A stretch of DNA of 64,000 nt from Candidatus Nanoarchaeia archaeon (GCA_028716945.1 JAQUOT010000001.1:187927-251926), one strand, 5' to 3'. Shown: positions 1,147 to 63,618, counted from the stretch's first letter. The notes: generated by a model from the sequence alone, not told the origin. A program made the numbers and translations.

Positions 1147-1182
1147 ATAAATAATATTAAAATTTATATATTTAAATCTTTT
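965..1182. repeat. 218-bp exact repeat, copy 1 (promoter, signal peptide and first 61 codons of a surface-protein gene)
   Basis: Base-by-base comparison shows 965..1182 is identical to 3651..3868 at an offset of 2686. Similarity decays within about 25 nt beyond the coding-side boundary. Confidence 0.9.
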
Positions 1183-1186
1183 GTTT

Positions 1187-3832: not shown

Positions 3833-3868
3833 ATAAATAATATTAAAATTTATATATTTAAATCTTTT
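3651..3868. repeat. 218-bp exact repeat, copy 2
   Basis: Identical to 965..1182. It covers 36 nt upstream of the ATG at 3832, including the AT-rich TATA-like tttaaatatataaa on the minus strand, plus the first 61 codons. Confidence 0.9.
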
Positions 3869-3873
3869 TATTT

Positions 3874-5895
3874 TCAAAATAAAGGTTTTATTCTGGTTTC
3901 TTTCAAAGCTTCCTTAATTTGTTCCTCTTTCCACCCTTTTATTCTTAAAGAACTTATAATTTGTTCTTTTGGAATACCTTGATTTATTTTAACTTGAATA
4001 TAATTTGATAATCTTGCTAAACTTAATTCTTTTTCAATATCGGATTGTGGCCAACCTGCTCTTTCTAATTCCTCTTTTATATTCTTCAAAGGAACTTTTG
4101 CATTTAAAGATTTTTGAATATATTCTTTCATTTTTTCAACATTAACAGGTCTTACTTTTATTGTAGGTTCTTGTTTTATTTCTTTTACAAAAGTTTGAGG
4201 AGCAACTTCTTTTGGTTGAACTATCGGACTTGATTCTTCAACAACTGCTCTTTTTCTTTGTACATAAGTATAAATTATAATTACTAAAATCATAATGAAA
4301 ACTATTCCAGAAATTAAACTTACTCCAATAAGCACCTTATTTGATTTATTTTCAAGATTAGTGTTAGTACCTAAATTAACATTTGTAGTTGTTCCTGCTA
4401 AAACAGTAGAAGTACAAGAAATAGAACAGCAAATTCCTGATCCCGAATGTAATAAAGTAGAACTACTACAAGTTTGATTACTTCCACAAACATAACCATT
4501 TTCTAAAGAGCAAGAACAATCTGAATCTCCTCCAACGCAAGATATAGAACAACCATCATTTATTCCACAAGTAGAACCAGTACAAGATTCATTAATTGCA
4601 GGTCTTCCTGTTAAAGTTCCACAATTATTTTCATCAATACAAGTTCTTGTTCTTACATTATTAACACAAGAAGTCCAATTTGTACAATTCCAAGTTTCAG
4701 AACAGGAAGAAGTAGAATTTGTAATATTAATTAAGAATAAATTACCAACAACATACAATCCTAAACTATCATTAGCACTAAATCTTATTAAATTGGTTCC
4801 AGTCCAGTTTGCTTTTGGAACAAATTCTGCTTCATCATTAGAATTTATAAAAATAGAAATAGAATTATTTCCGGTGAAATTATAAATTAATTTTTGTCCA
4901 TCTGGTTCTGAGAAATAATCCTCTAATTCTAAACTATCATTGGTATTTTTTCTCCAAGACATATTATCAAAATTATCTTTTAATATAGGAGGAGAATTTA
5001 ACATATCAATACTGCTTGAATTTACATAAGTTCCTTTAATCGTATCGTTAGCACTAATAGTACATGTCCATTCATCTATATGACTTTCAGTTATCTGTAC
5101 AGAAATATTACAAGATTTTCCATTTACCCAAGAATCTCCAGAACAAGATACATCTCCAGATTTAAATGGACTAGCAAAATTAGTTTCATTCCACAAAATG
5201 TATTTAACATTAACAGTACTACTATCCGTATCTTTAACAATAGAAGAACAATTTACATAATCTTTTACTCTAAACTTATTTGAACCAGTTAAATTAGTAA
5301 AAGAAACATCTGTTATTGTAGGAGGATTAGTTGTTACAGGAGCAGAAACTGTAAAACTTTTTGTATCTGAAATTAAAACATCTGCACTGTAATTTAAAAT
5401 GAATTCTAAAGTATAAGTTCCAGCACTTAAGGCAGATAATCCAGAAAAAGCAGATATAGGAGTACTTACAGTAACTTCAGAAAGCGTTGAAAATGCTCTT
5501 CCAGGTTGTTCAGGATTTTCCCAAGCCCAATCAGGACTATCATGACTTCCATCTTTAAAAATTTGACCATCAATACAATTTTTTGGATTTGCATTTGAGT
5601 TAGTTAAAAAATTTTCTAAAGTTAGAGTACTACGTTGTATAACTTGGTCTCCAGAATCTTTTATACCTATATAAACATTTGAAGACCCATTACAAGGAAT
5701 AACATCGCCTGCTAAAAATTTTATTGAAATATCTCCAGTTAATGATTGCCCTGCAGTTATAGTATCTAAATCAATATTATCTTTAACAACGTTTCCAGTA
5801 ATAGATGGCTTCATTAACATAAAAACTAAAAATGAGAATACAAATATTGCAAATATAAAAACGCTCAATTCTCTATCTTTTTTAATATGTACCAC
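3874..5895 (-). CDS. Large surface protein with N-terminal signal anchor, Cys-rich stalk, C-terminal TM and cytoplasmic tail carrying GW helical repeats
   Basis: 673-aa ORF. The N-terminal hydrophobic segment is followed by ITGNVV. A Cys-rich region reads CSETWNCTNWTSCVNNVRTRTCIDENNCG. The TM segment is VLIGVSLISGIVFIMILVIIIYTYV. The tail contains ELERAGWPQSDIEKEL and SSLRIKGWKEEQIKEAL. Confidence 0.8.
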   Translation of the reverse strand: MVHIKKDRELSVFIFAIFVFSFLVFMLMKPSITGNVVKDNIDLDTITAGQSLTGDISIKFLAGDVIPCNGSSNVYIGIKDSGDQVIQRSTLTLENFLTNSNANPKNCIDGQIFKDGSHDSPDWAWENPEQPGRAFSTLSEVTVSTPISAFSGLSALSAGTYTLEFILNYSADVLISDTKSFTVSAPVTTNPPTITDVSFTNLTGSNKFRVKDYVNCSSIVKDTDSSTVNVKYILWNETNFASPFKSGDVSCSGDSWVNGKSCNISVQITESHIDEWTCTISANDTIKGTYVNSSSIDMLNSPPILKDNFDNMSWRKNTNDSLELEDYFSEPDGQKLIYNFTGNNSISIFINSNDEAEFVPKANWTGTNLIRFSANDSLGLYVVGNLFLINITNSTSSCSETWNCTNWTSCVNNVRTRTCIDENNCGTLTGRPAINESCTGSTCGINDGCSISCVGGDSDCSCSLENGYVCGSNQTCSSSTLLHSGSGICCSISCTSTVLAGTTTNVNLGTNTNLENKSNKVLIGVSLISGIVFIMILVIIIYTYVQRKRAVVEESSPIVQPKEVAPQTFVKEIKQEPTIKVRPVNVEKMKEYIQKSLNAKVPLKNIKEELERAGWPQSDIEKELSLARLSNYIQVKINQGIPKEQIISSLRIKGWKEEQIKEALKETRIKPLF

Positions 5896-5934
5896 CTCTC
5901 CTTATATTTAATAACAATAAGCGGTATATAAAAT

Positions 5935-6486
5935 TTATTCTTTATGCTCTTTTATGATTTCTGCTTGAAATTTGTATATTTTTACAAATTTGTCCTTCCA
6001 AAAGTTCTCTGACAACCCTGCTTTATAACATAAGGAATCCAAAAACTCAGTCAAATTCATTTTATGTTCAATAGGAACTTGGGGCAATAACAATCCTTTT
6101 CTTCCCAAATATTCTATAATTAATCCATCTTTTCCAAGTTTTATTTTCTTCAAATATTCTTCTGGAGTTTTTACTTTGATTAATTTAGGAATTGTTAATA
6201 TTGAAATTTCTATGGAAAACTTTTCTCCTTGTTTTAAAGATTCAAATCTATTATCAGAGAATGCAGCAAATCTCGCGGCTTCTGCAATGCTTTTTCCAAG
6301 AATATTATAAGGTTCAATAAAACCAATACACCCTTTTAATTTTCTTTTGGAATATAAAGTAACAAAAACACCTTTTTTTTCTTTGAATTTATTTAATTCT
6401 TTTTCATCAATTTCCTTACCAGAAAAATAAGTTTCTATGGATTTTCTAGCTAACTCTAATAATTTCTTAGCTTGCAATTTATTCAT
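5935..6486 (-). CDS. AMMECR1 domain protein
   Basis: 183 aa. The stretch KGVFVTLYSKRKLKGCIGFIEP matches the AMMECR1 signature (GxFVTL...LRGCIG). Confidence 0.8.
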   Translation of the reverse strand: MNKLQAKKLLELARKSIETYFSGKEIDEKELNKFKEKKGVFVTLYSKRKLKGCIGFIEPYNILGKSIAEAARFAAFSDNRFESLKQGEKFSIEISILTIPKLIKVKTPEEYLKKIKLGKDGLIIEYLGRKGLLLPQVPIEHKMNLTEFLDSLCYKAGLSENFWKDKFVKIYKFQAEIIKEHKE

Positions 6487-6508
6487 ACAAAATTAAAGAA
6501 TTACAAAT

Positions 6509-6766
6509 TTATAATCTTTTAGATTCTTTTCTTAATTCATCTACTATTTTCTTAAGCGAAGAAATAGTGCTTGTTAATGATTTTTTAGGATCTTTGCTTT
6601 CTACTATAAATACTGGACTACTAGTTAAAGGATGTTCTACTTTATAACCTGCTATATCCGAATTTTTAGTTAATTCTTTTCTTAAAACATTACAAAGAGT
6701 ATGATTTTCTCCTTTGATTTCAAATTTTAACTTTGTTTTTGTTTGTTCTAAAATATTGAGTTCCAT
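6509..6766 (-). CDS. rpoL: DNA-directed RNA polymerase subunit L (Rpo11)
   Basis: 85 aa. The pattern FEIKGENHTLCNVLRKEL...AGYKVEHPL is typical of RpoL/Rpb11 (EDHTLGNxLR...Y..HP). Confidence 0.8.
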   Translation of the reverse strand: MELNILEQTKTKLKFEIKGENHTLCNVLRKELTKNSDIAGYKVEHPLTSSPVFIVESKDPKKSLTSTISSLKKIVDELRKESKRL

Positions 6767-6805
6767 TTTTCTTTTAATATATGTAATTCAGTATATAGTT
6801 CTTTT

Positions 6806-7282
6806 TTAAACCTTTCGTTTCTCTTTTATATTTAACAAATCCCCTATTTTTAAAGTACCATCTTTTAAATTTAAACTAGGTTTATGGGTTTCAGGATTGA
6901 CATAATATGCCTTAAAAGTGTCTATCAATTTTATACTTAATATTTTCTCTATATTTTTAGCCATTCTAAAAGTAGGTACTAATTTATTGGATTCTAAATT
7001 TCTAATAGTAATAATTCTATCATACATTTTATTTGCTAAATCTTCTTCTGTCCAGTTTAATTTTAATCTAGCATTTTTAATTCTTGAAGAGAAATCAGGA
7101 ACAATCATTTCATTTTCTTCTTCTTTTTGTAATTCCAGAATTTTTTCTTCTATTTCTTTTGGTTTTATTTCAACAGCTTTTCCAAGAGCAATACAATTAG
7201 AACAAGCTTTAATTAAAACTCCTTCAAAAATAGCTTCTCTTGTTTCGCATTCCTTTTTATTACAAACTGCACAATTATTCAT
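6806..7282 (-). CDS. Archaeal multiprotein bridging factor 1 (Zn-ribbon plus XRE-type HTH)
   Basis: 158 aa. The N-terminus carries CAVCN..C...CSNC and the C-terminus has an HTH (LNWTEEDLANKMYDRIITIRNLESNKLVP). Confidence 0.7.
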   Translation of the reverse strand: MNNCAVCNKKECETREAIFEGVLIKACSNCIALGKAVEIKPKEIEEKILELQKEEENEMIVPDFSSRIKNARLKLNWTEEDLANKMYDRIITIRNLESNKLVPTFRMAKNIEKILSIKLIDTFKAYYVNPETHKPSLNLKDGTLKIGDLLNIKEKRKV

Positions 7283-7925
7283 TTTTTACAAGAGCAAATA
7301 CTTCTCCAACGCTTGTAAAACCTTCTTTTTTATCTTTATTATTTACTATTATTGTTGGTGCTTTTGTAATATTATAATAATTCTTTACTAAATTCAAAGT
7401 TGGCTCATCAAATTGTCTATCTATAGAAAATATCTTAATATTAATATCTTGTCTATTTGCTAAATTATCTAAAACATAACCCTGCTTTATTGAATTATCC
7501 TCTTCCAAATCATAAAAATATAAAATAATATTTTGTTTATTATCACATTTTTTATTATAATCTATGAAAAGAGAATAAGCCCTTATTTCAAGTAAAAAAT
7601 ATTGTTCTCTTAATGAATCATATTCTTTTTCTTTTAATATATTTTTATCATCATATTCCATTAACCTCTGTCCTAAATCATATAAATTTCCAGAACTTGA
7701 AGAAAGTCTTTCTTTTATTAAATTACAATTTCCTATATCTAAGGATTCTAAGAATTGTTGCTCAACAAAAATGCTGATTATATCTAAATTATTTTGGTTT
7801 AAATTATAAGCAACATCACTTGTTCTTAAATCATCCCAAATTTTTGCAGTATAAAATCCTAATAGAAATATAGCTACAGTAATTACTAGCGCTGTTATGA
7901 AAATATCTTTTCTTATCTTTGGCAT
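7275..7925 (-). CDS. Membrane-anchored hypothetical protein (thioredoxin-fold-like C-terminal half without CxxC)
   Basis: Track ORF 7275..7949. I chose the start MPKIRKD at 7925 to avoid overlapping the upstream GT2 gene. It has a single N-terminal TM segment (IFITALVITVAIFLLGF). Confidence 0.6.
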   Translation of the reverse strand: MPKIRKDIFITALVITVAIFLLGFYTAKIWDDLRTSDVAYNLNQNNLDIISIFVEQQFLESLDIGNCNLIKERLSSSSGNLYDLGQRLMEYDDKNILKEKEYDSLREQYFLLEIRAYSLFIDYNKKCDNKQNIILYFYDLEEDNSIKQGYVLDNLANRQDINIKIFSIDRQFDEPTLNLVKNYYNITKAPTIIVNNKDKKEGFTSVGEVFALVKNE

Positions 7926-7926
7926 T

Positions 7927-9162
7927 TTACCATTTCCTCTTAGCCCCAAAAGCCTCTAAAACAAAGGCATTCATCCATTGCAGACTCCTTAACATAGGAT
8001 ATAACAATAAATATATAAGGGTAATGAAATGGAATTTCCACCTCTGATTAAAGTATTTATGGGCATAGATATAGATATAAAAACCAAATATAAAACTAGC
8101 AATTACAGGAAACCATATTCTTATATCTAAGCTTAAAATAAAATCTTTTACAGATGGCCATTCTATTATAAAATCAAATATTCCAAATCCCAACGTAATT
8201 ATCTTTGTTAAGGTTGTATAAACATATCTTAAAAATTGATAAGCAAATAATAAAAATGAAAATAAAACCATTAACATTGTTGTAACATTCAAAGGTAATT
8301 GGAACAACCCAATTAAACCATAATTTTTGTTAAAGAACATTTTTTTATATTTCCAGTTGTTTGTGATAAAACCTCTGAACCATCTTACTCTTTGTTTCCA
8401 GAAAGCCCTTATATTCAAAGGTCCATTTGTATAATTAATACTCCTTGGTTCTATAATTACATTATATTTATTATACCTCAATTTTAATGCAACTTCTAAG
8501 TCTTCTGTTAGATTGTTTTTGTCAAAACCCCCTAATTTTTTAATTAAATCTGTTCTGTAAACCGTCATAACTCCATGAGTCATGTGTAATGCTCCGATTC
8601 TAGATATTAATTTTCTAACAAAACTAGATAGAATATATTCTAATCTTTGTATTCTACCTAAATAGTTTATATCATTATTTATTAAAACAGAACTAATTAC
8701 CGCACCAATCTCCGGATCTGAGAAATGATTTACAATTAATTTCAAAGAATTTTTATCTACAAAAGAATCTGAATCAACTCTTGCAAAAAATTCAGTATCA
8801 ATTTGTTGCAAGGCAGCATTCAATGTTCCTGCTGCATTTCCACTATTGATTTTGTTTTGAATTAATTTAATATTTTTATGTTTTTTACAATATTCTTTAA
8901 TAATTAAAGGAGTATTATCTGTAGAAGCATCATCTGCTACAATTATTTTTAATTTATCTTTCGGATAATCCAGATTAAGTATAGAATCTAAGGTTTTTGC
9001 TATATTTTTTTCTTCATTATATGCAGGAACGACTACAGTAACTTTTGGAATTTCTTTTAATGGCTGCGGTTCTTTTGGTTCTCCTAAACCAACTATAATT
9101 AACCAAAAGATAGATACATATAGTGAAATGAAACACAATATCCATATATATATTTCAAACAT
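7927..9162 (-). CDS. Family 2 glycosyltransferase with integral membrane C-terminal half (processive synthase-like)
   Basis: 411 aa. It carries VTVVVPAYNEEKNIAKTLDSIL..YP, IIVADDASTDNT and QRVRWFRG (a QxxRW-like motif). Several C-terminal TM segments follow. Confidence 0.85.
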   Translation of the reverse strand: MFEIYIWILCFISLYVSIFWLIIVGLGEPKEPQPLKEIPKVTVVVPAYNEEKNIAKTLDSILNLDYPKDKLKIIVADDASTDNTPLIIKEYCKKHKNIKLIQNKINSGNAAGTLNAALQQIDTEFFARVDSDSFVDKNSLKLIVNHFSDPEIGAVISSVLINNDINYLGRIQRLEYILSSFVRKLISRIGALHMTHGVMTVYRTDLIKKLGGFDKNNLTEDLEVALKLRYNKYNVIIEPRSINYTNGPLNIRAFWKQRVRWFRGFITNNWKYKKMFFNKNYGLIGLFQLPLNVTTMLMVLFSFLLFAYQFLRYVYTTLTKIITLGFGIFDFIIEWPSVKDFILSLDIRIWFPVIASFIFGFYIYIYAHKYFNQRWKFHFITLIYLLLYPMLRSLQWMNAFVLEAFGAKRKW

Positions 9163-9178
9163 TTTAACCCCCTGAATA

Positions 9179-10642
9179 TTAACAAACTAATTTGTAAACC
9201 TGTAAATTTTTTTCAAAGCAATCTGTATCAAACTTCTTACTATCTATATTGTATAATTTTTTAACCTTTTCTGATAAAAAGATATATTTTATGTTATTTT
9301 CTTTCATTTTTGAAATGGTTCTCTCTCCTGAATTTGAACTAAATAAAATTCCTGCGTCTAACATCCTCTTCTCCGGATTTGGTGCTAATAAGAAATTTGT
9401 ATCAAAAAAGTTTTTCTTGCCTGAAAAATAATTAATCAAATTTCCTTCATAAATAGTACCAATGACTATATCATTTTTATCCTGAGAATCTTGTTTTATC
9501 CATTGCAAAGATTCAATTTCTATATTACTAGGAACCTGGCTTGCAGTGTTTTTTGCCATGGTAAATGAAGGGTAAACTGAAAATAATACTAATAAAATTA
9601 CAAATATACTTAAAAGTAATTTATTCCAATGTGCTACTTTTGTTAATTTTAGATATTTAAAAAAATTATAGATGGTTAATGCAGACAAAATTGAAGCAGA
9701 TAATCCTATAAAAACTAAAGCTGTATAAAAATTAATCATTTTCAACGAGAGCAAAATTAGATTGGTTATTAATAATGAAGATATTAAAAATATTGCTTTC
9801 TTTTTGTATTTTGTAATTCCTTTATAAATAGTTATAAATCCAAATATTAAAGGAATGTAACCTAAATGATACATTATAGAAAGGATATTTATTTGTTTAA
9901 AAGAAGCCACAGATAATGAGCTAGGCAAATTGTTCCATAATACACTTATTCCATAACTTAACAAAGAATCTTTATAAATTAATAAATTTGTTAGTAAAGT
10001 AATAATTAAAAAAGATAATATCAAGATTATTTCATTTTTATTTAATTCAGAATCTTCTGCATAAGAAAAAACTAAATAAATTATAAAAAATAAAATTACT
10101 AGAATAGAGATTGGACTTAATAAAGCCAAAATGAGTGAGGATAATAAAAATAGAGAAAAGTATGTTTTTTTATCAAGGTTTAAAATACAATAAATCATAA
10201 AAAATATTAAAGGAAATGCAATGCAATACACAGAAACCTTGTTTAATGTTTCTCTAATTGCTAAAGGGACAAAACCCACCATGAATGCAGAAATTAATGC
10301 AGATCTTTCATCGTTTATTATTTGTTTTGATATTAAATAAGCAAGTATTACTAATAAAGACATAAAAAATTGTAAGATTATTTTATCTGCCCAAGGAATA
10401 AATGAAATCGCAGCTAAAAAATATGAAAATAGGGGTGAATTATTTACAGGCCTTCCTGAATAACTCAGTTCATCATAAATCATGGGTTTTAAATTTTCCT
10501 TGACATAATCTGCTTGTCTTAAATTGGCATAAGAAGTATCATCTGAAAATGAATTTTCTGGGGTGGATAAAGAAAAGTTCAATCTAAATAAAAATACAAC
10601 CAAAAACAAAACCAACAAAATTATTTTATATATTTTATTCAT
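9179..10642 (-). CDS. Polytopic membrane protein, possibly a GT-C-type glycosyltransferase
   Basis: 487 aa with more than 10 predicted hydrophobic segments. An acidic first loop (FSDDTSYANL) and a soluble C-terminal domain are present. It lies adjacent to the GT2 gene. The function is inferred from architecture only. Confidence 0.5.
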   Translation of the reverse strand: MNKIYKIILLVLFLVVFLFRLNFSLSTPENSFSDDTSYANLRQADYVKENLKPMIYDELSYSGRPVNNSPLFSYFLAAISFIPWADKIILQFFMSLLVILAYLISKQIINDERSALISAFMVGFVPLAIRETLNKVSVYCIAFPLIFFMIYCILNLDKKTYFSLFLLSSLILALLSPISILVILFFIIYLVFSYAEDSELNKNEIILILSFLIITLLTNLLIYKDSLLSYGISVLWNNLPSSLSVASFKQINILSIMYHLGYIPLIFGFITIYKGITKYKKKAIFLISSLLITNLILLSLKMINFYTALVFIGLSASILSALTIYNFFKYLKLTKVAHWNKLLLSIFVILLVLFSVYPSFTMAKNTASQVPSNIEIESLQWIKQDSQDKNDIVIGTIYEGNLINYFSGKKNFFDTNFLLAPNPEKRMLDAGILFSSNSGERTISKMKENNIKYIFLSEKVKKLYNIDSKKFDTDCFEKNLQVYKLVC

Positions 10643-11114
10643 TTTTTAATTTTAAATTATTATCTACTACATCAAAATAATCAAAGAACTTTTGAGTTAA
10701 TTTTAACATTCTTGTTCTTCCAGATTTTTCCGAAGTAACAAAACTACTTTCTTTTAAGAAATGAATATGATCATATGCTTTATTTCCTCTTATTTTTATG
10801 ATTTCTGCTTGTAAAACAGGTTGTTTGTATGCGATTACTGCCAAAGTTTCTTGTGTAGGAAAATCCAACTCAGAATCCGATAACAATTTTTCACTCAAAT
10901 ATAAATATTCTTTCTTTAAACAGAGCTTCCATTTATCTGCTTCATTTACTAATTCTAATGGTCCTTGTCTTTTAGAGTATTCATCTTTTAATTCAAGTAA
11001 TTTTTGAGCGATTAATCCTTGAGAACCTATGCTTGTTAAACTAGCTATTTCTGGTACAGATACAGGTCTTCCTAATATGAATAATACCGACTCTATTTTA
11101 TTCCTATTTTCCAT
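10635..11114 (-). CDS. scpB: Segregation and condensation protein B (ScpB)
   Basis: 159 aa. It has IESVLFILGRPVSVPEIA and ETLAVIAYKQPVLQAEIIKIRG.KAYDHI, which form the tandem winged-helix pattern of ScpB. Confidence 0.75.
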   Translation of the reverse strand: MENRNKIESVLFILGRPVSVPEIASLTSIGSQGLIAQKLLELKDEYSKRQGPLELVNEADKWKLCLKKEYLYLSEKLLSDSELDFPTQETLAVIAYKQPVLQAEIIKIRGNKAYDHIHFLKESSFVTSEKSGRTRMLKLTQKFFDYFDVVDNNLKLKNE

Positions 11115-11216
11115 AGGTTTTTTATTAGAAATAAGTATAAAAAACTAACTATATTAGTTTTTATTTTTCGAAGAATATAATTTGCATTAGTTTAAGTATT
11201 ACTCAAGAAAAAGTTT

Positions 11217-11570
11217 TTAATTCAAATATATTGGTTTCTTATCTTTGTCTGGTGTACCTCTAGGATTTTTTGGAGGTTCTTGAGAATGACCAACATAAAA
11301 TCTTAATAGAACAGTTAATGCCAACAGTTCTTCCTGTTGTACATTCATATAATCACGAGGTTTATCTTTCACAGCCTCGAATAGATCATAAAAACAATAC
11401 CACATCTCATCCCATAAAACTCTTCCTCGTTCAACTGCTTCTTTCCAAGTTTGAGGATGTTCATTATACAACAATTCTCCTTTATGTCTAAGGTGGTTAT
11501 TCCAATCAAGTTCATAAACCTTTTTACTTAATGCTTCAATTCTACGTTCTAATTCAATTACTTGATTCAT
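11217..11570 (-). CDS. Hypothetical protein (Trp/His-rich, compositionally atypical)
   Basis: 117-aa ORF flanked by about 100-150 nt of non-coding sequence on both sides. I recognise no family. Confidence 0.55.
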   Translation of the reverse strand: MNQVIELERRIEALSKKVYELDWNNHLRHKGELLYNEHPQTWKEAVERGRVLWDEMWYCFYDLFEAVKDKPRDYMNVQQEELLALTVLLRFYVGHSQEPPKNPRGTPDKDKKPIYLN

Positions 11571-11721
11571 AACTTATTAATATTTACGATTGTTTATAAA
11601 TCTTTCGATTTGTTATTACTATAAAGTTATTAATATAAATTAACATTCGTCTAAAATTAATTCTTTAATAAAAAGGTTACTTTGAGGTTATTATTATTTA
11701 TAAAAACATTAACTTTAAATA

Positions 11722-12090
11722 TTACTCTAACCCTTGGTATTCTAAAGATTGTTTTTCGCTTAAACAAGCACCATCAAAACATCCTTCTTCACAATAAACT
11801 ATCATTGTTTGGAAATTAAAAGAATTTGTCGAATCACAATTATACTCTTTTAATCTATTTGCATCTACGCAATAATCTGTTCTTTCACGCAGATTACAAT
11901 CGTCTCCTCTTACTGAAACAGTTCCTTTTAGATTAATACTTCCTTGGTCTGTATCTTTACAAGATTTATCACAACCAACAAGAACATTACTAGTTGTTGT
12001 AAATTGAGTTACTCCCAAAGTTAATAAAAGAATTACTGCTATAAGTAATAAAGCAGATAATAAAACTTCTTTATTAAATTTCTTTGCCAT
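11722..12090 (-). CDS. Small membrane-anchored cysteine-rich protein, paralog 1 of 5
   Basis: 122 aa. N-terminal TM, then CKDTDQG...KGTVSV...TDYC...LKEYNC...YCEEGCFDGAC. Confidence 0.75.
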   Translation of the reverse strand: MAKKFNKEVLLSALLLIAVILLLTLGVTQFTTTSNVLVGCDKSCKDTDQGSINLKGTVSVRGDDCNLRERTDYCVDANRLKEYNCDSTNSFNFQTMIVYCEEGCFDGACLSEKQSLEYQGLE

Positions 12091-12091
12091 T

Positions 12092-12487
12092 TTATTTTAT
12101 GCAAGCTCCATCTTTACAACCTTTTTCACAAATAACCAATTTATCATTATATTCACTATAAGTAAAATCTTGAGAGTTAGAACTTTCTGGATCTGATCCA
12201 CAGAAATATTCTTTTACGGCAGAATATTTATTTTCTTCATTTGGTCCAACCTGTACATAAGCACAATAATCGGTTTTTGCTTCAAAAGCATAGCGTCCTT
12301 TGCTTACCGCAGTTACTGTACCTTTAACAAATTGATTATATCCTCCATCTGTATCATTACAACTTCTTTTTAGAAGAACGTTTCCAGTTGTAAAATTTAT
12401 AAAGCTTAATATAAAAAATGCGCAAACAGATACTATTAAAATTAGAATAATATAATCCCTAACATCCACTTCTTTTTTCTTTTTCAT
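12092..12487 (-). CDS. Small membrane-anchored cysteine-rich protein, paralog 2 of 5
   Basis: 131 aa. TM, then TTGNV, then CNDTDGG...KGTVTA...TDYC...VKEYFC...ICEKGCKDGAC. Confidence 0.75.
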   Translation of the reverse strand: MKKKKEVDVRDYIILILIVSVCAFFILSFINFTTGNVLLKRSCNDTDGGYNQFVKGTVTAVSKGRYAFEAKTDYCAYVQVGPNEENKYSAVKEYFCGSDPESSNSQDFTYSEYNDKLVICEKGCKDGACIK

Positions 12488-12561
12488 ATCTTATTTATAC
12501 ATTTAATTATTTATAAAGATTTCTATATAAATTAAAAAAATAAAAAATAAAAAATTTTAAT

Positions 12562-12891
12562 TTATTGTAAGCATGCTCCGTTTTGACAGCCATTTGCACA
12601 ATAAACTGAAGGATCTCTGTTATATCCGCTTGCATCTGCCACATTACAATTAAATTCTACTAATGTCTTTCCTGTTGAATCATCCATAGAACAATAATCT
12701 GTTTGTGGGTCAAAAGCAGTTCCTCCAGAATCAGTACCTGTTACAGTACCTTGCATGTAAATACTTCCACCATCAGTATCTTGACAAGAAACTTTTATAA
12801 CTTTTCCTGTTGTTAAAATACCTGATGCTAAAAGCACTGCTAAAACGAGCAAAACTACTAATCCGATTATAGTTTTGTCTTTTGTATCCAT
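12562..12891 (-). CDS. Small membrane-anchored cysteine-rich protein, paralog 3 of 5
   Basis: 109 aa. TM, then TTGKV, then CQDTDGG...QGTVTG...TDYC...LVEFNC...YCANGCQNGAC. Confidence 0.75.
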   Translation of the reverse strand: MDTKDKTIIGLVVLLVLAVLLASGILTTGKVIKVSCQDTDGGSIYMQGTVTGTDSGGTAFDPQTDYCSMDDSTGKTLVEFNCNVADASGYNRDPSVYCANGCQNGACLQ

Positions 12892-12931
12892 AATTTAATT
12901 AAGAACAATCTATATTTAAATGTTTCTAAAC

Positions 12932-13267
12932 TTATTCTATGCAAGCGCCGTCTTTACAACCCTTTTCACAAACAACTAATTCAGATTCCCAATTATTTGG
13001 AGTAAGCAAATTACAGTTATATTCTTTTAATTCCTTTGTATTTTCTAAAGAACAATAGTCTGTTTCTTCAAATTGGGCATTGTAATCAGTATATCCTGTT
13101 ACTATTCCTTTTACATAAATACTTCCACTATCTGTATCTTCACAATGTGCTTTAAAACTAAATCCAGTAACTTTCTCAAAAAATCCTGTTGCAAAAAATA
13201 ATAAATATAAAGACAGTATTACAAAAATTACCAATAATTTTCTTGAAAAACCTTCAAATAATTTCAT
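12932..13267 (-). CDS. Small membrane-anchored cysteine-rich protein, paralog 4 of 5
   Basis: Track ORF 12932..13309. I moved the start to MKLFEGF (13267) so that it no longer overlaps paralog 5. The domain reads CEDTDSG...KGIVTG...TDYC...LKEYNC...VCEKGCKDGAC. Confidence 0.7.
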   Translation of the reverse strand: MKLFEGFSRKLLVIFVILSLYLLFFATGFFEKVTGFSFKAHCEDTDSGSIYVKGIVTGYTDYNAQFEETDYCSLENTKELKEYNCNLLTPNNWESELVVCEKGCKDGACIE

Positions 13268-13281
13268 TTTGAAATAAAAAA

Positions 13282-13650
13282 TTATCTCTCGCAAGCCCCG
13301 TTCTTGCAACCATATTCACAAACAATAAATTTATAGGAATATGCGTTTTTGTCTGTTTCTTCTGGGTCAATATCATGCAAACAATAATATTCTTTTAAAA
13401 CATCGGTTTTTTCAGGATTATCTTCATAATATACACAATAGTCTACTTCATTAATCTGTATTTGAGAAGGATATTGGTGTCCTGAAAGCTTTCCTCTAGC
13501 AAATTCATTATCTCCACTATCAGTATCATAACAATAGCCTGCACGCATACTTTGCCCAGTAGTATAATTTATAGTATTATTTAGCACAATTAAAACTGCT
13601 AAAACAACTAAGATTGCAGAACCTATCACCACTTTATCTCTATTATCCAT
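13282..13650 (-). CDS. Small membrane-anchored cysteine-rich protein, paralog 5 of 5
   Basis: 122 aa. TM, then TTGQS, then CYDTDSG...RGKLSG...VDYC...LKEYYC...VCEYGCKNGAC. Confidence 0.75.
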   Translation of the reverse strand: MDNRDKVVIGSAILVVLAVLIVLNNTINYTTGQSMRAGYCYDTDSGDNEFARGKLSGHQYPSQIQINEVDYCVYYEDNPEKTDVLKEYYCLHDIDPEETDKNAYSYKFIVCEYGCKNGACER

Positions 13651-13690: not shown

Positions 13691-14782
13691 TTATTTAATA
13701 GGATATCTAAGTATAGCTGCTACTCCACCGATATCTTTTAGCTGTACCCCTTCTCTTGATTCTGTAGAAATCATTCTTACTTCGGTTTTGTATTTTTCTG
13801 CTTCTTCTTCAAGTTCTTCTATTTGTTTATCTGGAAGATTTTCAGATAATAATAAAACATCTACTGCACCCAAAGCCAAAGCTTTTTTGGTTTCAATTAA
13901 TCCATAAGTTGTTTTTTCTTCTTCCCTTGCTAATTTTTCGAAAAACTTTTGCATAATCTCTTTTTCTACAGTTATTTCTTCTTCTGCAAGAACTTCGTGA
14001 CTTCTTTCAACTAAATCATGTAATCCAGATTCTCCAGTATAAGATAAATCTTTTACAGCAATTATTTTTTTTCTTATTTCAGTTAATAAATAATTTCCAT
14101 CTACAAATTCTTGTTTTGTAGTACCAGGTCCACCAATTAATACTCCTTTTAAATCTGGTTTATTAAAAAATTCTTTGTTTGCAAATTCTGCAACCCTTTT
14201 ATAAAATTCGTGAGCTGCTTCTTCTCTTAAACGAGCATATCTTTGTTGTGAGAATCCACCTGTTTTTACTTTTCCTGGAACACCCGAAGTCATTGTAACT
14301 AGATTCTTAATATTTGTTCCTCTCAATAATCCAACATTGGCCTCTCTTTTATCAAGAACAATTAAACCAAATGTTTCTTTGATATTAATCATGTCTATCA
14401 AAGGTTCTAGTAAAAAAGTTTGATCACATCTATATACTCGCATGTTAATCGGTTCAGGAGGTTCTATAGACCAAACTTTAATATCAACTTTATTTTCTTT
14501 TTCAGAAGCATTTCCTGCAAAAACAGCCAATCCGTTCTCTGGAGTTCTTTTGTATAATCTTAAATGTTGTATCATCCTTTCAATAGAATCTATGACATGC
14601 ATTCTTGTTGTTTTATCTTTAATATTAGAAGCAGTTCCTTGTTCTTGAAATAAGTGATTCATAATTTTAACTAATTCATAACCTGCTGGAACATAAACAG
14701 AAACTAACTCAGTATGTCTTCCTCTAATTCCTTCTAATTCTTTTAATGTTTTCTTTAAAATATATCTTTCTTTTATATTCAT
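13691..14782 (-). CDS. prf1: Peptide chain release factor aRF1 homolog with non-canonical motifs (NIKD instead of NIKS, GGF instead of GGQ)
   Basis: 363 aa. The N-domain has GTASNIKDKTTR and YRCDQTF (YxCxxxF). The M-domain reads GVPGKVKTGGFSQQRYARLREEAAHEFY, which aligns without gaps to the usual ..GGQSxxRFxRLREE.. pattern. I re-read the codons ggt gga ttc from the DNA. Confidence 0.8.
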   Translation of the reverse strand: MNIKERYILKKTLKELEGIRGRHTELVSVYVPAGYELVKIMNHLFQEQGTASNIKDKTTRMHVIDSIERMIQHLRLYKRTPENGLAVFAGNASEKENKVDIKVWSIEPPEPINMRVYRCDQTFLLEPLIDMINIKETFGLIVLDKREANVGLLRGTNIKNLVTMTSGVPGKVKTGGFSQQRYARLREEAAHEFYKRVAEFANKEFFNKPDLKGVLIGGPGTTKQEFVDGNYLLTEIRKKIIAVKDLSYTGESGLHDLVERSHEVLAEEEITVEKEIMQKFFEKLAREEEKTTYGLIETKKALALGAVDVLLLSENLPDKQIEELEEEAEKYKTEVRMISTESREGVQLKDIGGVAAILRYPIK

Positions 14783-17144: not shown

Positions 17145-17188
17145 TTAGAAATATTTAAATATATTGTATTTAATTTTAAAGGTAGAAT

Positions 17189-17338
17189 GGAGCGGTAGCT
17201 CAGAAAGGTTTTGAAGTTTAAGACCTTGAGCAACCTGGGAGAGCATAGAAATATCTCAAACCACGCTGAAGCCGTGGATGAAAGGTTATACGTCTAGTAT
17301 ACCTTGCCAAATCGGGGGTTCAAATCCCCCTCGCTCCA
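17189..17338 (+). tRNA. tRNA-Phe (anticodon GAA) with three introns (17204..17233, 17245..17259, 17281..17311)
   Basis: The hand fold gives acceptor GGAGCGG/TCGCTCC plus A73. The D-arm is GCTC-AGCCTGGGA-GAGC after removal of a 30-nt insert. The anticodon arm is CCACG-CTGAAGC-CGTGG, the variable loop ATGTC, and the T-arm GGGGG-TTCAAAT-CCCCC. The spliced product is 74 nt. Each intron is bounded by a BHB-like motif with 3-nt bulges. An AT-rich TATA-like tttaaatatat lies about 30 nt upstream. Confidence 0.85.
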
Positions 17339-18026
17339 TTTTCTTTATATTTTTAATATTAGAACTTCTTATTAATTTAATAAAAGAGGAGGCATTATTA
17401 TAACCGCTTATTTGTATTTTATATTTTTCATACCTTTTATTAGTTCTTTTATCTATATAATTTTCATGTCCTACATAATGATCTATCTTTTGAATTTTAA
17501 TCCAATCAGATATTTTGTATATTAAATTTTTATCTTTTAGACCAAGATTAATAACTGGATAAAATTTATATTTTCCGTGATTCTTTTTTAAACACAAAGA
17601 ACCATCTGTATCAAAAATTCCTTTAATGAATGCTTTAGCATAAATTTTATTATCCCATATCCATCGAGGAACCTTATTTCTATAATTTATTTTTTTATAA
17701 CCTATAATATTAAGAAAAGATAATATCCCTTTAGATCTCTTTGTTAAGATTAAAGTATTAATCTTTTTCTTTTGATATAAATTCATCTTTACATTGAATA
17801 AAAACAAAACTTTATCTTTAATATAGTTTGAATAATTCCTCTCATCTTTGAGATTACTAAAAATAGAAAAAATATAATCATTGCTTCCTAAATTATAATA
17901 AACATGGCCATCTCCAGACAAAATACCTAAAAATTCTGACAAGTCTCTAGAAGAGGATTTAGGAAAAATAATTTTATTCTTAATATCTTGGTGACTTAGT
18001 TGAATATCTGATAAATCAAATTTCAT
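17286..18026 (-). CDS. LAGLIDADG family endonuclease (two-motif, free-standing), paralog A
   Basis: Track ORF 17286..18068. I chose the start MKFDLSD at 18026, matching paralog B. The two motifs are LGILSGDGHV and IKGIFDTDGSL. The last 53 nt are antisense to the tRNA-Phe 3' part. Confidence 0.8.
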   Translation of the reverse strand: MKFDLSDIQLSHQDIKNKIIFPKSSSRDLSEFLGILSGDGHVYYNLGSNDYIFSIFSNLKDERNYSNYIKDKVLFLFNVKMNLYQKKKINTLILTKRSKGILSFLNIIGYKKINYRNKVPRWIWDNKIYAKAFIKGIFDTDGSLCLKKNHGKYKFYPVINLGLKDKNLIYKISDWIKIQKIDHYVGHENYIDKRTNKRYEKYKIQISGYNNASSFIKLIRSSNIKNIKKMERGGFEPPIWQGILDV

Positions 18027-55844: not shown

Positions 55845-55939
55845 AGCCCCTTAGTGTAGTGGCCAAATTGATTAAAAATCAAGGCTAGGCATACGAGACT
55901 CTGGATCTTGTGACGGAAGTTCGAATCTTCCAGGGGCTA
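55845..55939 (+). tRNA. tRNA-Gln (anticodon CTG) with a 22-nt D-loop intron (55867..55888)
   Basis: The acceptor is AGCCCCT/AGGGGCT (an A1-U72 pair as in archaeal tRNA-Gln) plus A73. The anticodon arm is CGAGA-CTCTGGA-TCTTG and the T-arm GGAAG-TTCGAAT-CTTCC. The BHB is GGCC|AAA|TTGA...TCAA|GGCT|AGG. The spliced D-arm is GTGT-AGTGGCCAA-GCAT, giving 73 nt. A TATA-like ctttataaat lies about 25 nt upstream. Confidence 0.85.
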
Positions 55940-60786: not shown

Positions 60787-60882
60787 TGAGCCCGCGGAGA
60801 TTTGAACTCCGGGCCCCCACCAATGATTTGGTTTAAATCCAATTTATCAGAGTGGTGCGCTACCAGGCTGCGCCACGGGCTC
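60787..60882 (-). tRNA. tRNA-Ile (anticodon GAT) with a 22-nt anticodon-loop intron (60822..60843)
   Basis: Read on the minus strand, the acceptor is GAGCCCG/CGGGCTC plus A73. The D-arm is GCGC-AGCCTGGTA-GCGC, the anticodon arm CCACT-CTGATAA-GGTGG after splicing, and the T-arm CGGAG-TTCAAAT-CTCCG. The BHB is TGAT|AAA|TTGG...CCAA|ATCA|TTG. The mature product is 74 nt. Confidence 0.85.
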
Positions 60883-63488: not shown

Positions 63489-63618
63489 CGCCTTAGGGAG
63501 GACTCGAACCTCCGACCACCTGATTAACAGTCTCACCTTTCCATATTGGAAAACAGGTGCTCTACCCTTCAGATCTTCTGAACCTAAAAGGCCAGATGGT
63601 TTGCTGAGCTACTAAGGC
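63489..63618 (-). tRNA. tRNA-Asn (anticodon GTT) with two introns (63567..63601 in the D-loop, 63532..63553 in the anticodon stem at 30/31)
   Basis: Read on the minus strand, the acceptor is GCCTTAG/CTAAGGC plus G73. After splicing the D-arm is GCTC-AGCAGGTA-GAGC and the anticodon arm CCTGA-CTGTTAA-TCAGG. The variable loop is TGGTC and the T-arm GGAGG-TTCGAGT-CCTCC, giving 73 nt. Both introns are bounded by BHB motifs (TCAG|CAA...CTGA|AGG and CACC|TGT|TTTCCA-ATA-TGGAAA|GGTG|AGA). Confidence 0.85.

What the first reader, a model, noticed from the sequence alone, without database searches (positions are those of the whole stretch)
17204..17311. Two of the three tRNA-Phe introns are sequence-related, pointing to intron duplication or transposition within one gene
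Intron 1 is AAAGGTTttgaagtttaagACCTTGagCAA. Intron 3 is AAAGGTTatacgtctagtatACCTTGcCAAa. They share the same 7-nt 5' end, the same ACCTTG element and the same CAA 3' end. Only the apical loop differs. Both form the same AAGGU/ACCUU inner helix. This is the pattern expected if an intron was copied to a new site in the same tRNA. Intron gain by transposition has been proposed for crenarchaeal tRNA introns.
Basis: seen in the sequence. Interest (0 to 1): 0.55.

Follow-up and report, generated by a model that had tools for sequence, protein, structure and literature searches.

The report
Two look-alike introns in tRNA-Phe
A phenylalanine tRNA gene of a tiny uncultured archaeon is interrupted by three small introns, two of which share the same basal stem; they probably belong to one intron family of a kind already described in other archaea, but a fresh duplication inside this gene is not supported.

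Summary
Window 17189-17338 (+) is a tRNA-Phe(GAA) gene in a 27% GC DPANN (Nanoarchaeota/Woesearchaeota-like) genome. It has three bulge-helix-bulge introns at 15/16, 25/26 and 46/47. Removing all three gives a canonical 74-nt tRNA.

Introns 1 and 3 share AAAGGTT...ACCTTG exactly. A conservative null that allows for hairpin pairing and local composition gives p of about 0.001 for this pair and 0.01-0.02 for any pair in the window.

- The terminal A...AA is generic in this clade, and the 4 nt before it are dictated by the exons.
- The intron interiors are unrelated.
- Both introns have homologs at the same positions in relatives, where the two are less alike (AAAAGTG.. versus AAAGACA..).
- The closest relative (ValRS 92% identical) has an intronless tRNA-Phe at the same locus. 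Others carry three or four introns.

My best reading is that the two introns are old paralogs, or were homogenised, within a sequence family that recurs at three tRNA-Phe positions. This resembles the Thermoproteales "intron transposition" clusters. It is not a recent intragenic copy, and convergence remains a serious rival.

Side finding: a LAGLIDADG endonuclease gene family sits tail-to-tail against tRNA-Phe in 7 of 7 loci checked.

The parts
17189..17338 (+). tRNA-Phe(GAA) gene with three introns (150 nt precursor, 74 nt after splicing, no encoded CCA)
   Evidence: Rfam RF00005 31.6 bits. ARAGORN calls tRNA-Phe(gaa) on the in-silico spliced sequence only. Fold z-score -4.97.
17189..17203 (+). 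Exon 1: acceptor 5' strand, D-stem 5' strand GCUC, A14 G15
   Evidence: Hand parse, confirmed.
17204..17233 (+). Intron 1 (30 nt, between positions 15 and 16), laid out as A / AAGGU-UUUGA / AGU / UUAAG-ACCUU / GAGC / AA. This is a relaxed HBh' motif: the central helix is GCUC:GAGC, the inner helix has 10 bp, and there is no outer exon helix.
   Evidence: BHB scan (s=16 e=45, H 4/4, h' 10 bp). Positional homologs in L026 and L034.
17204..17210 (+). Shared 5' element AAAGGTT of intron 1
17223..17228 (+). Shared element ACCTTG of intron 1. ACCUU is the 3' strand of the basal stem, and G is the first base of the exon-pairing tetramer.
17234..17244 (+). Exon 2: rest of the D-loop and the D-stem 3' strand (CCUGGGAGAGC)
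17245..17259 (+). Intron 2 (15 nt, 25/26), laid out as A / UA / GAAA / UA / UCUC / AA. This is a full hBHBh' motif with a 3-bp outer helix, UGG(17a-19):CCA(27-29).
   Evidence: s=57 e=71, H GAGA:UCUC 4/4, h 3 bp. Identical in L026, and one base different in L005 and in L034.
17260..17280 (+). Exon 3: position 26, the anticodon arm CCACG-CUGAAGC-CGUGG, and A44 U45 G46
17281..17311 (+). Intron 3 (31 nt, 46/47 in the variable loop), laid out as A / AAGGU / U-AUAC-GUCUA-GUAU / ACCUU / GCCA / AA. The central helix UGGA:GCCA has 3 of 4 pairs.
   Evidence: Hand parse. Fold. Positional homologs in L005/L026/L034/L040 (same GCCA-AA end) and in L070, where exon and intron tetramers covary as GUAG:CUAC.
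17281..17287 (+). Shared 5' element AAAGGTT of intron 3
   Evidence: The same heptamer starts the 46/47 intron of L070.
17301..17306 (+). Shared element ACCTTG of intron 3
17312..17338 (+). Exon 4: U47 C48, T-arm GGGGG-UUCAAAU-CCCCC, acceptor 3' strand, discriminator A
17154..17161 (+). TTTAAATA, a likely archaeal TATA box 28-35 nt upstream of the tRNA. It lies in the 45-nt spacer shared with the divergent ValRS gene.
   Evidence: Read directly. The spacer is conserved in L004. Promoter function is inferred.
17286..18026 (-). LAGLIDADG homing-endonuclease-like gene (246 aa). Its last 17 codons and the stop are antisense to exon 4 and to the 3' part of intron 3. The stop codon TAA is the antisense of TTA at 17286-17288 inside intron 3.
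   Evidence: Pfam LAGLIDADG_3, E = 7e-4, below the cut-off. The exact protein is called in Logan contigs, and homologs exist at 41-52% identity. Both motifs are conserved. The gene is absent from the same site in L004.

Best explanation
This is a working tRNA-Phe(GAA) gene of a DPANN archaeon. Its transcript carries three protein-spliced (bulge-helix-bulge) introns, in the D-loop (15/16), at the D-stem/anticodon-stem junction (25/26) and in the variable loop (46/47). Each intron ends with four bases that pair with the exon just upstream of its own 5' splice site. This creates the two 3-nt bulges that the tRNA splicing endonuclease cuts. A ligase then joins the four exons into a normal 74-nt tRNA.

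Introns 1 and 3 carry the same basal stem (A|AAGGU-U ... ACCUU). I read them as two members of one intron sequence family ('type 1': A-AA[A/G/U]G[U]...). That family occupies three different positions of tRNA-Phe in related lineages. They are therefore paralogs from an old copying event, or copies kept alike by homogenisation. They are not a fresh duplication in this genome.

What is shown: the gene, the three BHB motifs, the identity of the stems, the excess over the null, and the positional homologs. What is inferred: splicing itself, common descent, and the direction and age of any copying.
For: Gene and introns. The BHB plus inner-helix architecture holds across 10 clade introns. 95.6% of cells are paired against 56% in shuffles and 28-44% in slid controls, and 9 of 9 pairs change on both sides.

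Stem identity beyond constraint: the first 7 nt and the 5 nt before the exon-pairing tetramer match at 12 of 12 positions. Among 195 cross-position pairs this is the only 12, and the mode is 3-5. The helix-coupled null gives 5e-4 to 1e-3 per pair.

Family pattern: window intron 1 matches the L070 46/47 intron at 11/12, and the L040 D-loop intron matches both window introns at 10/12. A second archetype (A-UUGG..CCAA) links the tRNA-Phe T-loop intron of L005/L026 with the window's tRNA-Gln and tRNA-Ile introns at 9-10/12. The background distribution is bimodal, with nothing at 7-8 of 12.

Window intron 1 differs from its L034 positional homolog at exactly the three basal positions where that homolog differs from window intron 3 (read from the basal segments listed).

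Precedent: similar introns at different positions of different tRNAs in Thermoproteales have been interpreted as transposition (Fujishima et al. 2010, as summarised in PMC4090602).
Against: The similarity is only 12-13 nt of an AT-rich hairpin base. The interiors are unrelated.

The finding was selected after the fact from a 64-kb read. Corrected for all intron pairs in the window, p is only 0.01-0.02.

The outer three pairs AAG/CUU also occur in the L005-type 46/47 intron, and nearly so in the L026/L034 15/16 introns. The identity specific to this lineage is therefore 2 bp plus one base.

Both introns lack an outer exon helix, so both may need a stable G-C-containing inner stem. That favours convergence.

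If the copy is old, retention of 12/12 identity while the loops randomised needs selection or conversion.

Only 7 introns of this genome could be examined, so no genome-wide background is available.
Confidence: 0.45

Rival explanations
1. Independent introns that look alike by constraint and chance. Both are relaxed HBh' introns in a 73% AT genome. Both start with the generic bulge A, need a stable inner stem next to the bulge, and end with the generic AA. A few compensatory substitutions made two already similar stems identical.
For: The A...AA termini are generic. The positional homologs already share AAG/CUU or AAAG/CUUU. Window intron 1's stem equals the L034 intron 1 stem plus one compensatory A-U to G-C change. 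The interiors are unrelated. Window-wide corrected p is only 0.01-0.02. Overall identity between introns 1 and 3 (69%) is barely above that of each intron to its own positional homolog (63-66%).
Against: Seven other intron families in the clade use quite different stems, so no sequence requirement is evident. The three positions where window intron 1 departs from L034's are exactly those that bring it to the state of intron 3. The bimodal similarity distribution suggests real families.
Confidence: 0.38
2. Recent event in this lineage: intron 1 was newly copied from intron 3, or the two basal stems were homogenised by short-tract gene conversion within the gene.
For: Window intron 1 is closer to window intron 3 (12/12) and to the L070 46/47 intron (11/12) than to the 15/16 introns of L034 and L026 (9/12 and 8/12). 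It is also 8 nt longer than they are. The closest relative, L004, lacks all three introns.
Against: A 15/16 intron with the same ends and the same GAGC-AA tail exists in L026 and L034. A new insertion would therefore have to hit the same site twice. The loops of introns 1 and 3 show no similarity, which is unexpected for a recent copy. Conversion would need two separate tracts of 6-7 nt that skip the loop. No closer relatives are available to date the event (nothing between 92% and 74% ValRS identity).
Confidence: 0.12
3. The intron-rich tRNA-Phe allele did not evolve in place. It was imported together with the adjacent LAGLIDADG endonuclease gene by homing with co-conversion, so the intron combination reflects a donor lineage.
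For: The 92%-identical relative L004 has the same promoter and neighbours but an intronless tRNA-Phe and no endonuclease gene. Endonuclease homologs lie against tRNA-Phe in 7 of 7 loci in different neighbourhoods. The window's nearest endonuclease homolog (L070, 52%) sits beside a 46/47 intron that also starts AAAGGTT, although its host is distant (CysRS 62%).
Against: The flanks on both sides are 88-90% identical to L004, with no divergence island. The mature tRNA is equidistant from L004 and L005 (8 differences each) and far from L070 (17). Introns and the endonuclease gene do not co-vary: L071 and L072 have the gene but no introns, while L005, L026, L034 and L040 have introns but no gene. 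This scenario would explain the presence of the introns, not their similarity.
Confidence: 0.05

Closest known systems
Archaeal bulge-helix-bulge (BHB, including relaxed HBh') tRNA introns at non-canonical positions, with multi-intron tRNA genes as described for Thermoproteales and Nanoarchaeota (Marck & Grosjean 2003; Sugahara et al. 2007, 2008; reviewed in PMC4090602 and PMC4390854)
   Same: There is a 4-bp exon-intron helix flanked by two 3-nt bulges. The introns lie in the D-loop, at 25/26 and in the variable region. One gene carries three introns. The motifs are relaxed and lack the outer helix. Removal restores a canonical cloverleaf.
   Different: The host is a 27% GC DPANN archaeon rather than a crenarchaeote. 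The 15/16 and 46/47 sites are not among the positions listed in the review (20/21, 22/23, 25/26, 29/30, 30/31, 45/46, 53/54, 56/57, 59/60). Relatives carry four introns in this gene, whereas the 2015 review states 'up to three'.
tRNA intron 'transposition' clusters of Thermoproteales (Fujishima, Sugahara, Tomita, Kanai 2010, Mol Biol Evol 27:2233; known to me through PMC4090602)
   Same: Introns at different positions share sequence beyond what the splice motif needs. Presence and absence vary between close relatives. The phenomenon is linked to endonucleases of broad specificity.
   Different: Here the two similar introns lie in the same gene. Similarity is confined to the basal 12-13 nt. Both have positional homologs elsewhere, so no recent gain can be shown. 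The clustering criteria of the original paper could not be applied because I did not have its text.
DPANN tRNA gene disruption linked to alpha4-type EndA with the L3 loop (Kaneta et al. 2018, PMC5829648)
   Same: That paper reports more disrupted tRNA genes in Pacearchaeota and Woesearchaeota-type genomes, and incomplete tRNA sets that point to undetected disrupted genes. In this window, 4 of 5 tRNA genes are interrupted. Two are invisible to ARAGORN, and two are absent from the Rfam matches at gathering score.
   Different: The endonuclease of this organism was not found in the window and was not examined.
Free-standing homing endonuclease genes beside tRNA genes in T-even phages (for example SegB; from my own knowledge, not checked here)
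   Same: An endonuclease gene outside any intron or intein lies beside a conserved tRNA gene and is present or absent between close relatives.
   Different: This one belongs to the LAGLIDADG family rather than GIY-YIG, and it is in an archaeal chromosome. Its reading frame runs antisense into the tRNA 3' part. Its activity and target are untested.

Membership tests
Archaeal BHB tRNA intron | A four-base-pair central helix forms between exon bases -6..-3 and intron bases -6..-3. | tested here: met
   Intron 1 has GCUC:GAGC (4/4) and intron 2 has GAGA:UCUC (4/4). Intron 3 has UGGA:GCCA (3/4, with an A.G mismatch), and all five positional homologs with that exon show the same pairing. In L070 the exon and the intron covary as GUAG:CUAC.
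Archaeal BHB tRNA intron | Two 3-nt bulges carry symmetric splice sites, and excision restores a canonical tRNA. | tested here: met
   Splicing at the sites given by the motif yields a 74-nt sequence that ARAGORN calls tRNA-Phe(gaa). Partial removal gives no call.
Archaeal BHB tRNA intron | Flanking helices are present (h' inside the intron, h between exons), with at least one present in relaxed motifs. | tested here: met
   Intron 1 has h' of 10 bp and no h. Intron 2 has h' of 2 bp and h of 3 bp. Intron 3 has h' of 5+4 bp and no h. Across 10 introns the pairing shows covariation. The alignment for that test was built on my own parse, so it leans towards the structure.
Archaeal BHB tRNA intron | Cleavage by the tRNA splicing endonuclease and ligation (RtcB) in vivo. 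| not testable with these tools
   No RNA data were available, and the endonuclease gene was not located in the window.
Transposed or paralogous tRNA intron cluster (sensu Fujishima 2010) | Sequence similarity between introns at different positions exceeds what splice-motif and composition constraints impose. | tested here: met
   Basal positions match at 12 of 12. The helix-coupled null gives 5e-4 to 1e-3 per pair and 0.01-0.02 window-wide. This is the only 12/12 among 195 cross-position pairs.
Transposed or paralogous tRNA intron cluster (sensu Fujishima 2010) | Similarity extends along the intron, so the whole sequence clusters. | tested here: not met
   22 of 32 aligned columns are identical overall, but the 12-13 nt interiors align no better than shuffles (2471 of 5000).
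Transposed or paralogous tRNA intron cluster (sensu Fujishima 2010) | The phylogenetic pattern shows gain after the lineages split: the intron is absent at that site in close relatives and the tRNA bodies are not co-related. | tested here: inconclusive
   L004 (ValRS 92%) lacks all introns. L005 lacks intron 1, but L026 and L034 have it at the same site. There is no lineage between 92% and 74% identity, and gain cannot be told from loss.
LAGLIDADG homing endonuclease (neighbouring gene) | Two LAGLIDADG motifs with conserved acidic residues lie in one chain. | tested here: met
   GILSGDG and GIFDTDGS are present, and D39 and D141 are invariant in 7 homologs. There are weak profile matches to the PI-PfuI and V-ATPase intein endonuclease domains and to I-DmoI (E about 3-4e-3).
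LAGLIDADG homing endonuclease (neighbouring gene) | The protein reaches the curated family threshold. | tested here: inconclusive
   Pfam LAGLIDADG_3 scores 20.2 bits against a cut-off of 22.5 for the window protein. Most homologs carry a precomputed PF14528 hit.
LAGLIDADG homing endonuclease (neighbouring gene) | The gene is present or absent at one conserved genomic site, and the enzyme cleaves the empty site. | tested here: inconclusive
   The presence/absence polymorphism is shown for the window against L004. The association with tRNA-Phe holds in 7 of 7 loci. Cleavage is not testable here.

The most novel reading that the evidence does not exclude
BHB introns in this DPANN clade are actively mobile. 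A small number of intron 'archetypes' copy themselves between positions of one tRNA gene and between tRNA genes, giving 0 to 4 introns in orthologous tRNA-Phe genes of close relatives. The spread of intron-bearing alleles between genomes is helped by a LAGLIDADG homing endonuclease family that has specialised on the 3' end of tRNA-Phe and drags the neighbouring tRNA sequence along by co-conversion. Under this reading the window would hold a snapshot of both processes: two paralogous introns in one gene, plus the endonuclease.
Probability: 0.12. Interest if true: 0.75.

Novelty: new member of a known kind. Interest (0 to 1): 0.4.

Why it matters
How archaeal tRNA genes gain protein-spliced introns is unresolved. 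The transposition idea rests mostly on Thermoproteales. Here a second, unrelated and very AT-rich lineage shows the same signature: look-alike introns at different positions, and rapid presence/absence turnover from 0 to 4 introns in one orthologous gene. That makes the question testable in DPANN metagenomes, where hundreds of related genomes exist.

There is also a practical point. Standard tRNA finders missed or barely detected 3 of the 5 tRNA genes in this window, so DPANN tRNA sets are probably under-called.

The endonuclease/tRNA-Phe association, if it reflects homing, would be a new class of target for LAGLIDADG enzymes. It would also bear on the old proposal that disrupted tRNA genes resist mobile elements.

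Tried and rejected
1. The genome-contig scan with an intron 2 anchor (GGGAGAGCATAGAAATATCT) returned one relevant contig, already in hand, and one chance hit in a Chloroflexi terminator. The window's own genome is not in that collection, so a genome-wide intron catalogue could not be built.

2. The metagenome scan with the anticodon arm plus AAA returned 56 loci. Fifty-two were chance matches in bacterial coding DNA. Only L026, L034, L040 and L041 were tRNA-Phe.

3. Synteny through ValRS homologs worked for L004 and L005 only. L008, L067 and L069 have other neighbours upstream of ValRS. L069 has its tRNA-Phe next to the 170-aa gene instead.

4. Rfam at a permissive threshold does not see the multi-intron genes of L005, L026, L034 and L040. 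I therefore used my own T-arm/acceptor and BHB scanners.

5. The idea that the intron-rich allele arrived by endonuclease-driven co-conversion is not supported. The flanks show no divergence island and the tRNA body is not donor-like.

6. I considered cross-pairing of the two identical stems (intron 1 5' strand with intron 3 3' strand) as a functional reason for the identity. I rejected it because GCUC cannot pair with GCCA, so no splice motif would form.

7. The anticodon-arm region of the L070 gene could not be parsed. After removing a clean 32-nt intron, a 14-nt insertion remains with no BHB motif. L070 may be decaying, and its 46/47 intron should be used with that caveat.

8. MAFFT misaligned two of 12 basal-segment constructs, so the covariation count used 10.

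9. Viral-contig scans for the intron 1 pattern and for the endonuclease family found nothing.

Full report
**What is there**

The window has about 27% GC. It matches NCBI assembly GCA_028712455.1, contig JAQTPZ010000002.1. Its ValRS is most similar to proteins named Nanoarchaeota, Candidatus Nanoarchaeia or Woesearchaeota archaeon, so the host is a DPANN archaeon.

At 17189-17338 (+) Rfam finds a tRNA at 31.6 bits, with long insertions in the D-loop and between the D-arm and T-arm. ARAGORN does not see it. I parsed it by hand as follows:
- exon 1: GGAGCGGTAGCTCAG
- intron 1: 17204-17233
- exon 2: CCTGGGAGAGC
- intron 2: 17245-17259
- exon 3: ACCACGCTGAAGCCGTGGATG
- intron 3: 17281-17311
- exon 4: TCGGGGGTTCAAATCCCCCTCGCTCCA

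The spliced product is 74 nt, and ARAGORN calls it tRNA-Phe(gaa). With only intron 1 removed, or only introns 1 and 2, nothing is called. A TTTAAATA box lies 28-35 nt upstream and a T-run follows the gene. Promoter and terminator function are inferred. The same sequence occurs in the NCBI assembly. The overlapping LAGLIDADG protein recurs in three Logan contigs.

**The introns are bulge-helix-bulge introns**

I used the standard geometry. Four exon bases at -6..-3 pair with intron bases -6..-3. Two bulged bases precede each cut. The first intron base and the first base of the next exon complete the bulges.
- Intron 1 reads A / AAGGUUUUGA-AGU-UUAAGACCUU / GAGC / AA. GCUC:GAGC is perfect and the inner helix has 10 bp. 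There is no outer exon helix, so this is a relaxed HBh' motif.
- Intron 2 reads A / UA-GAAA-UA / UCUC / AA. GAGA:UCUC is perfect and there is a 3-bp outer helix.
- Intron 3 reads A / AAGGU-U-AUAC-GUCUA-GUAU-ACCUU / GCCA / AA. UGGA:GCCA has three of four pairs.

I aligned ten introns of this clade by this rule. In that set 95.6% of helix cells are paired, against 56% in shuffles and 28-44% when the partner is slid. All nine pairs show changes on both sides. The alignment was built on my own parse, so this is a consistency check and not an independent proof.

One detail: the intron 2 outer helix uses CCA(27-29), and the intron 3 central helix uses UGG(41-43). These are the two strands of the lower anticodon stem. 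The two motifs are therefore compatible in one precursor fold.

**The observation**

Introns 1 and 3 share AAAGGTT at the 5' end and ACCTTG before the exon-pairing tetramer. The gapped pattern occurs nowhere else in the window, with 0.09 expected.

**How much of it is constraint**

- The first A and the terminal AA are generic. All ten aligned introns of the clade start with A, and eight of ten end in AA.
- GAGC and GCCA are dictated by the exons.
- What remains is the five-pair basal stem AAGGU/ACCUU plus the following U.
- Other introns in the clade have stems UA, UUGG, UUGAU, AAUGUU, AGUUC, UCAAAAG and UUUCC. The stem sequence is therefore not required.

I built a null in which only the seven 5' positions are free, because the 3' strand follows from pairing. 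It uses position-specific frequencies from 10-14 independent intron families. It gives 5e-4 to 1e-3 for this pair, 0.001-0.003 for the three pairs in the gene, and 0.01-0.02 for the 21 pairs among the seven introns I found in the window. Among 195 cross-position pairs of 21 introns, this is the only 12/12. The mode is 3-5.

The 12-13 nt interiors are unrelated: 2471 of 5000 shuffles align as well. Overall identity is 22 of 32 columns.

**Relatives**

ValRS neighbours gave the orthologous locus in two lineages.
- L004 (ValRS 92%, CysRS 93.7%) has the same promoter and the same neighbours. Its tRNA-Phe is intronless.
- L005, L006 and L007 (ValRS 74%) have intron 2 (one base different), a 46/47 intron AAAGACAACAGATTCTGTGTCTTGCCAAA, and a further T-loop intron. 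They have no intron 1.

A metagenome scan added three more.
- L026 and L034 have four introns. One of them lies at the same 15/16 site as intron 1: AAAAGTGTAAAGCTTTGAGCAA in L026 and AAAAGTGATAAACTTTGAGTAA in L034.
- L040 has a different D-loop intron (AAATGTT...ACATTGGCTAA), the same 46/47 intron, and a 53/54 intron.

L069 (ValRS 70%) has an intronless gene. L070 is a distant host (CysRS 62%). Its 46/47 intron begins AAAGGTT and ends CCTT-CTAC-AA, and its tetramer covaries with the exon (GUAG:CUAC).

Both window introns therefore have positional homologs. In the L005/L026/L034 clade the two are less alike than in the window.

Basal-segment scores:

| Pair | Score (of 12) |
|---|---|
| window intron 1 vs window intron 3 | 12 |
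| window intron 1 vs L070 46/47 intron | 11 |
| window intron 3 vs L070 46/47 intron | 11 |
| window intron 1 vs L034 15/16 intron | 9 |
| window intron 1 vs L026 15/16 intron | 8 |
| either window intron vs L040 D-loop intron | 10 |

A second archetype (A-UUGG...CCAA) links the T-loop intron of L005/L026 with the window's tRNA-Gln D-loop intron and tRNA-Ile intron at 9-10/12. The background distribution is bimodal, with no pair at 7-8 of 12. That is what sequence families would give.

**Interpretation**

The family resemblance exceeds constraint. It matches the pattern that Fujishima et al. (2010) read as intron transposition in Thermoproteales (as summarised in PMC4090602).

A recent duplication inside this gene is not supported, for three reasons:
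- The 15/16 site is already occupied in L026 and L034 by an intron with the same ends.
- The loops of introns 1 and 3 are unrelated.
- Each window intron is about as similar to its positional homologs (63-66%) as to the other window intron (69%).

Two readings remain.
- The two introns could be old paralogs, or could have been homogenised. Window intron 1 differs from L034's at exactly the three basal positions that bring it to the state of intron 3, and the outgroup-like L070 suggests that AAAGGTT is an old state of the 46/47 intron.
- They could instead have converged. Both are relaxed introns that need a stable inner stem, they started from already similar AAG/CUU stems, and the genome is AT-rich.

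I put these at about 0.45 and 0.38. A recent copy or conversion gets 0.12.

The data cannot tell gain from loss. Either L004 lost three introns or the window lineage gained them. There is no lineage between 92% and 74% identity.

**Context from the literature**

Multi-intron tRNA genes and non-canonical positions are established for Crenarchaeota and Nanoarchaeota (PMC4090602). One review states 'up to three introns' (PMC4390854). Kaneta et al. 2018 link alpha4 EndA carrying an L3 loop in DPANN with increased tRNA disruption. They also note incomplete tRNA sets that suggest undetected disrupted genes (PMC5829648). The window fits that picture. It holds five tRNA genes, four of them interrupted by seven introns, and two of the five are invisible to ARAGORN.

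**Side finding**

The minus-strand ORF 17286-18026 encodes a 246-aa double-motif LAGLIDADG protein. It is absent from the same site in L004, where about 24 bp replace about 790 bp.

Its homologs at 41-52% identity lie tail-to-tail against a tRNA-Phe(GAA) gene in all loci examined. These are L070, L071, L072-74, L075, L076 and L077, and they sit in at least two different gene neighbourhoods.

In all of them the reading frame runs antisense into the tRNA in the same frame. The alignment therefore shows an invariant M..GFEP, which is the antisense of CAT plus the T-loop.

In a search of 1.84 billion representatives the family has 145 members at E <= 1e-30. Of 149 full-length members, 55 end in a tail that reads as an antisense T-loop in one of the three frames. 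At an internal control segment the figure is 3 of 149. Where the tail reaches the anticodon loop, it reads as CTGAAG, the Phe anticodon loop, in 8 of 25 such tails. The other 17 carry no such signature.

I found no description of this association.

I tested whether the endonuclease could have imported the intron-rich allele. I found no support. The flanks are 88-90% identical to L004 on both sides. The tRNA body is not donor-like. Introns and the endonuclease gene do not co-vary.

**Verdict**

The locus is a new member of a known kind. It has moderate interest as a DPANN counterpart of the Thermoproteales intron families, and somewhat more because of the 0-to-4 intron turnover and the endonuclease association seen around it.

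Noticed in passing
window 17286-18026 (-); L070 4001-4741, L071 4001-4774, L072 4001-4732, L075 738-1463, L076 1002-1784, L077 771-1529: A LAGLIDADG homing-endonuclease-like gene family lies tail-to-tail against tRNA-Phe(GAA) in 7 of 7 loci checked. Its last codons are antisense to the tRNA 3' part in a fixed frame, giving an invariant M..GFEP. It is absent from the same site in the 92% relative L004. Of 149 full-length family representatives, 55 have tails that read as an antisense tRNA T-loop. I found no published description.
   Followed up: partly
L026 ~766-935 and L034 ~2004-2173 (tRNA-Phe); L004 9868-9941; L069 ~1045-1118: Orthologous tRNA-Phe genes of related lineages carry 0 introns (L004, L069), 3 (window, L005, L040) or 4 (L026, L034: 15/16, 25/26, 46/47 and T-loop). 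Four introns in one tRNA gene exceeds the 'up to three' stated in a 2015 review (PMC4390854).
   Followed up: partly
window 55845-55939 (+): A tRNA-Gln(CUG) gene with a 22-nt D-loop intron (ATTGATTAAAAATCAAGGCTAG, central helix GGCC:GGCU) lies 1 nt upstream of tRNA-Glu. ARAGORN misses it and Rfam scores it below the gathering score (26.9 bits). ARAGORN calls it after in-silico splicing.
   Followed up: yes
window 63489-63618 (-): A tRNA-Asn(GUU) gene with two introns, missed by ARAGORN and Rfam. One is a clean 22-nt intron at 30/31 (TTTTCCAATATGGAAAGGTGAG, CACC:GGUG). The other is a D-loop insertion of about 35 nt whose splice motif is irregular: TCAG:CTGA pairs, but the inner helix is offset. 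It may be a nested intron.
   Followed up: partly
window 60787-60882 (-): By the BHB rule (UGAU:AUCA), the 22-nt intron of tRNA-Ile(GAU) lies between positions 38 and 39 and not at the canonical 37/38. Its bulges are AA|A and UU|G.
   Followed up: partly
L005 ~9400-9440 (minus strand), same in L026 and L034: The T-loop intron can be drawn in two ways. A 30-nt excision restores UUCAAAU but has a 3/4 central helix. A 26-nt excision has a perfect central helix that covaries between lineages (GGUU:AAUC or AACC), but it would leave an 11-nt T-loop. The discrepancy is unexplained.
   Followed up: no
L070 ~4689-4840 (minus strand): This tRNA-Phe has a clean 32-nt intron in the anticodon stem and a 46/47 intron. 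A further 14-nt insertion after the anticodon loop (CTTTTAGGCTGAAA, a partial repeat of the loop) has no recognisable splice motif. The gene may be decaying, or it may be processed in an unknown way.
   Followed up: partly
window 11722-13650 (-): Five tandem paralogous genes encode small proteins of 109-131 aa. Each has an N-terminal hydrophobic segment and a shared cysteine pattern (C..DTDGG ... DYC ... EY.C ... C..GC.[DN]GAC). The array is also present, with different copy numbers, in L004 and L005. There are no Pfam hits in the precomputed tables.
   Followed up: no
L008 9732-12110: In a 73% ValRS relative the release factor aRF1 gene is 792 aa long and carries an intein with a LAGLIDADG domain (Pfam Intein_splicing and LAGLIDADG_3). 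The window's aRF1 (13691-14782) has 363 aa and no intein.
   Followed up: no
window 1-13226 versus contig JAQTPZ010000002.1: By coordinate arithmetic, the NCBI contig that carries this locus ends at about window position 13227. The window therefore extends beyond that contig and must come from another, longer assembly of the same organism.
   Followed up: no
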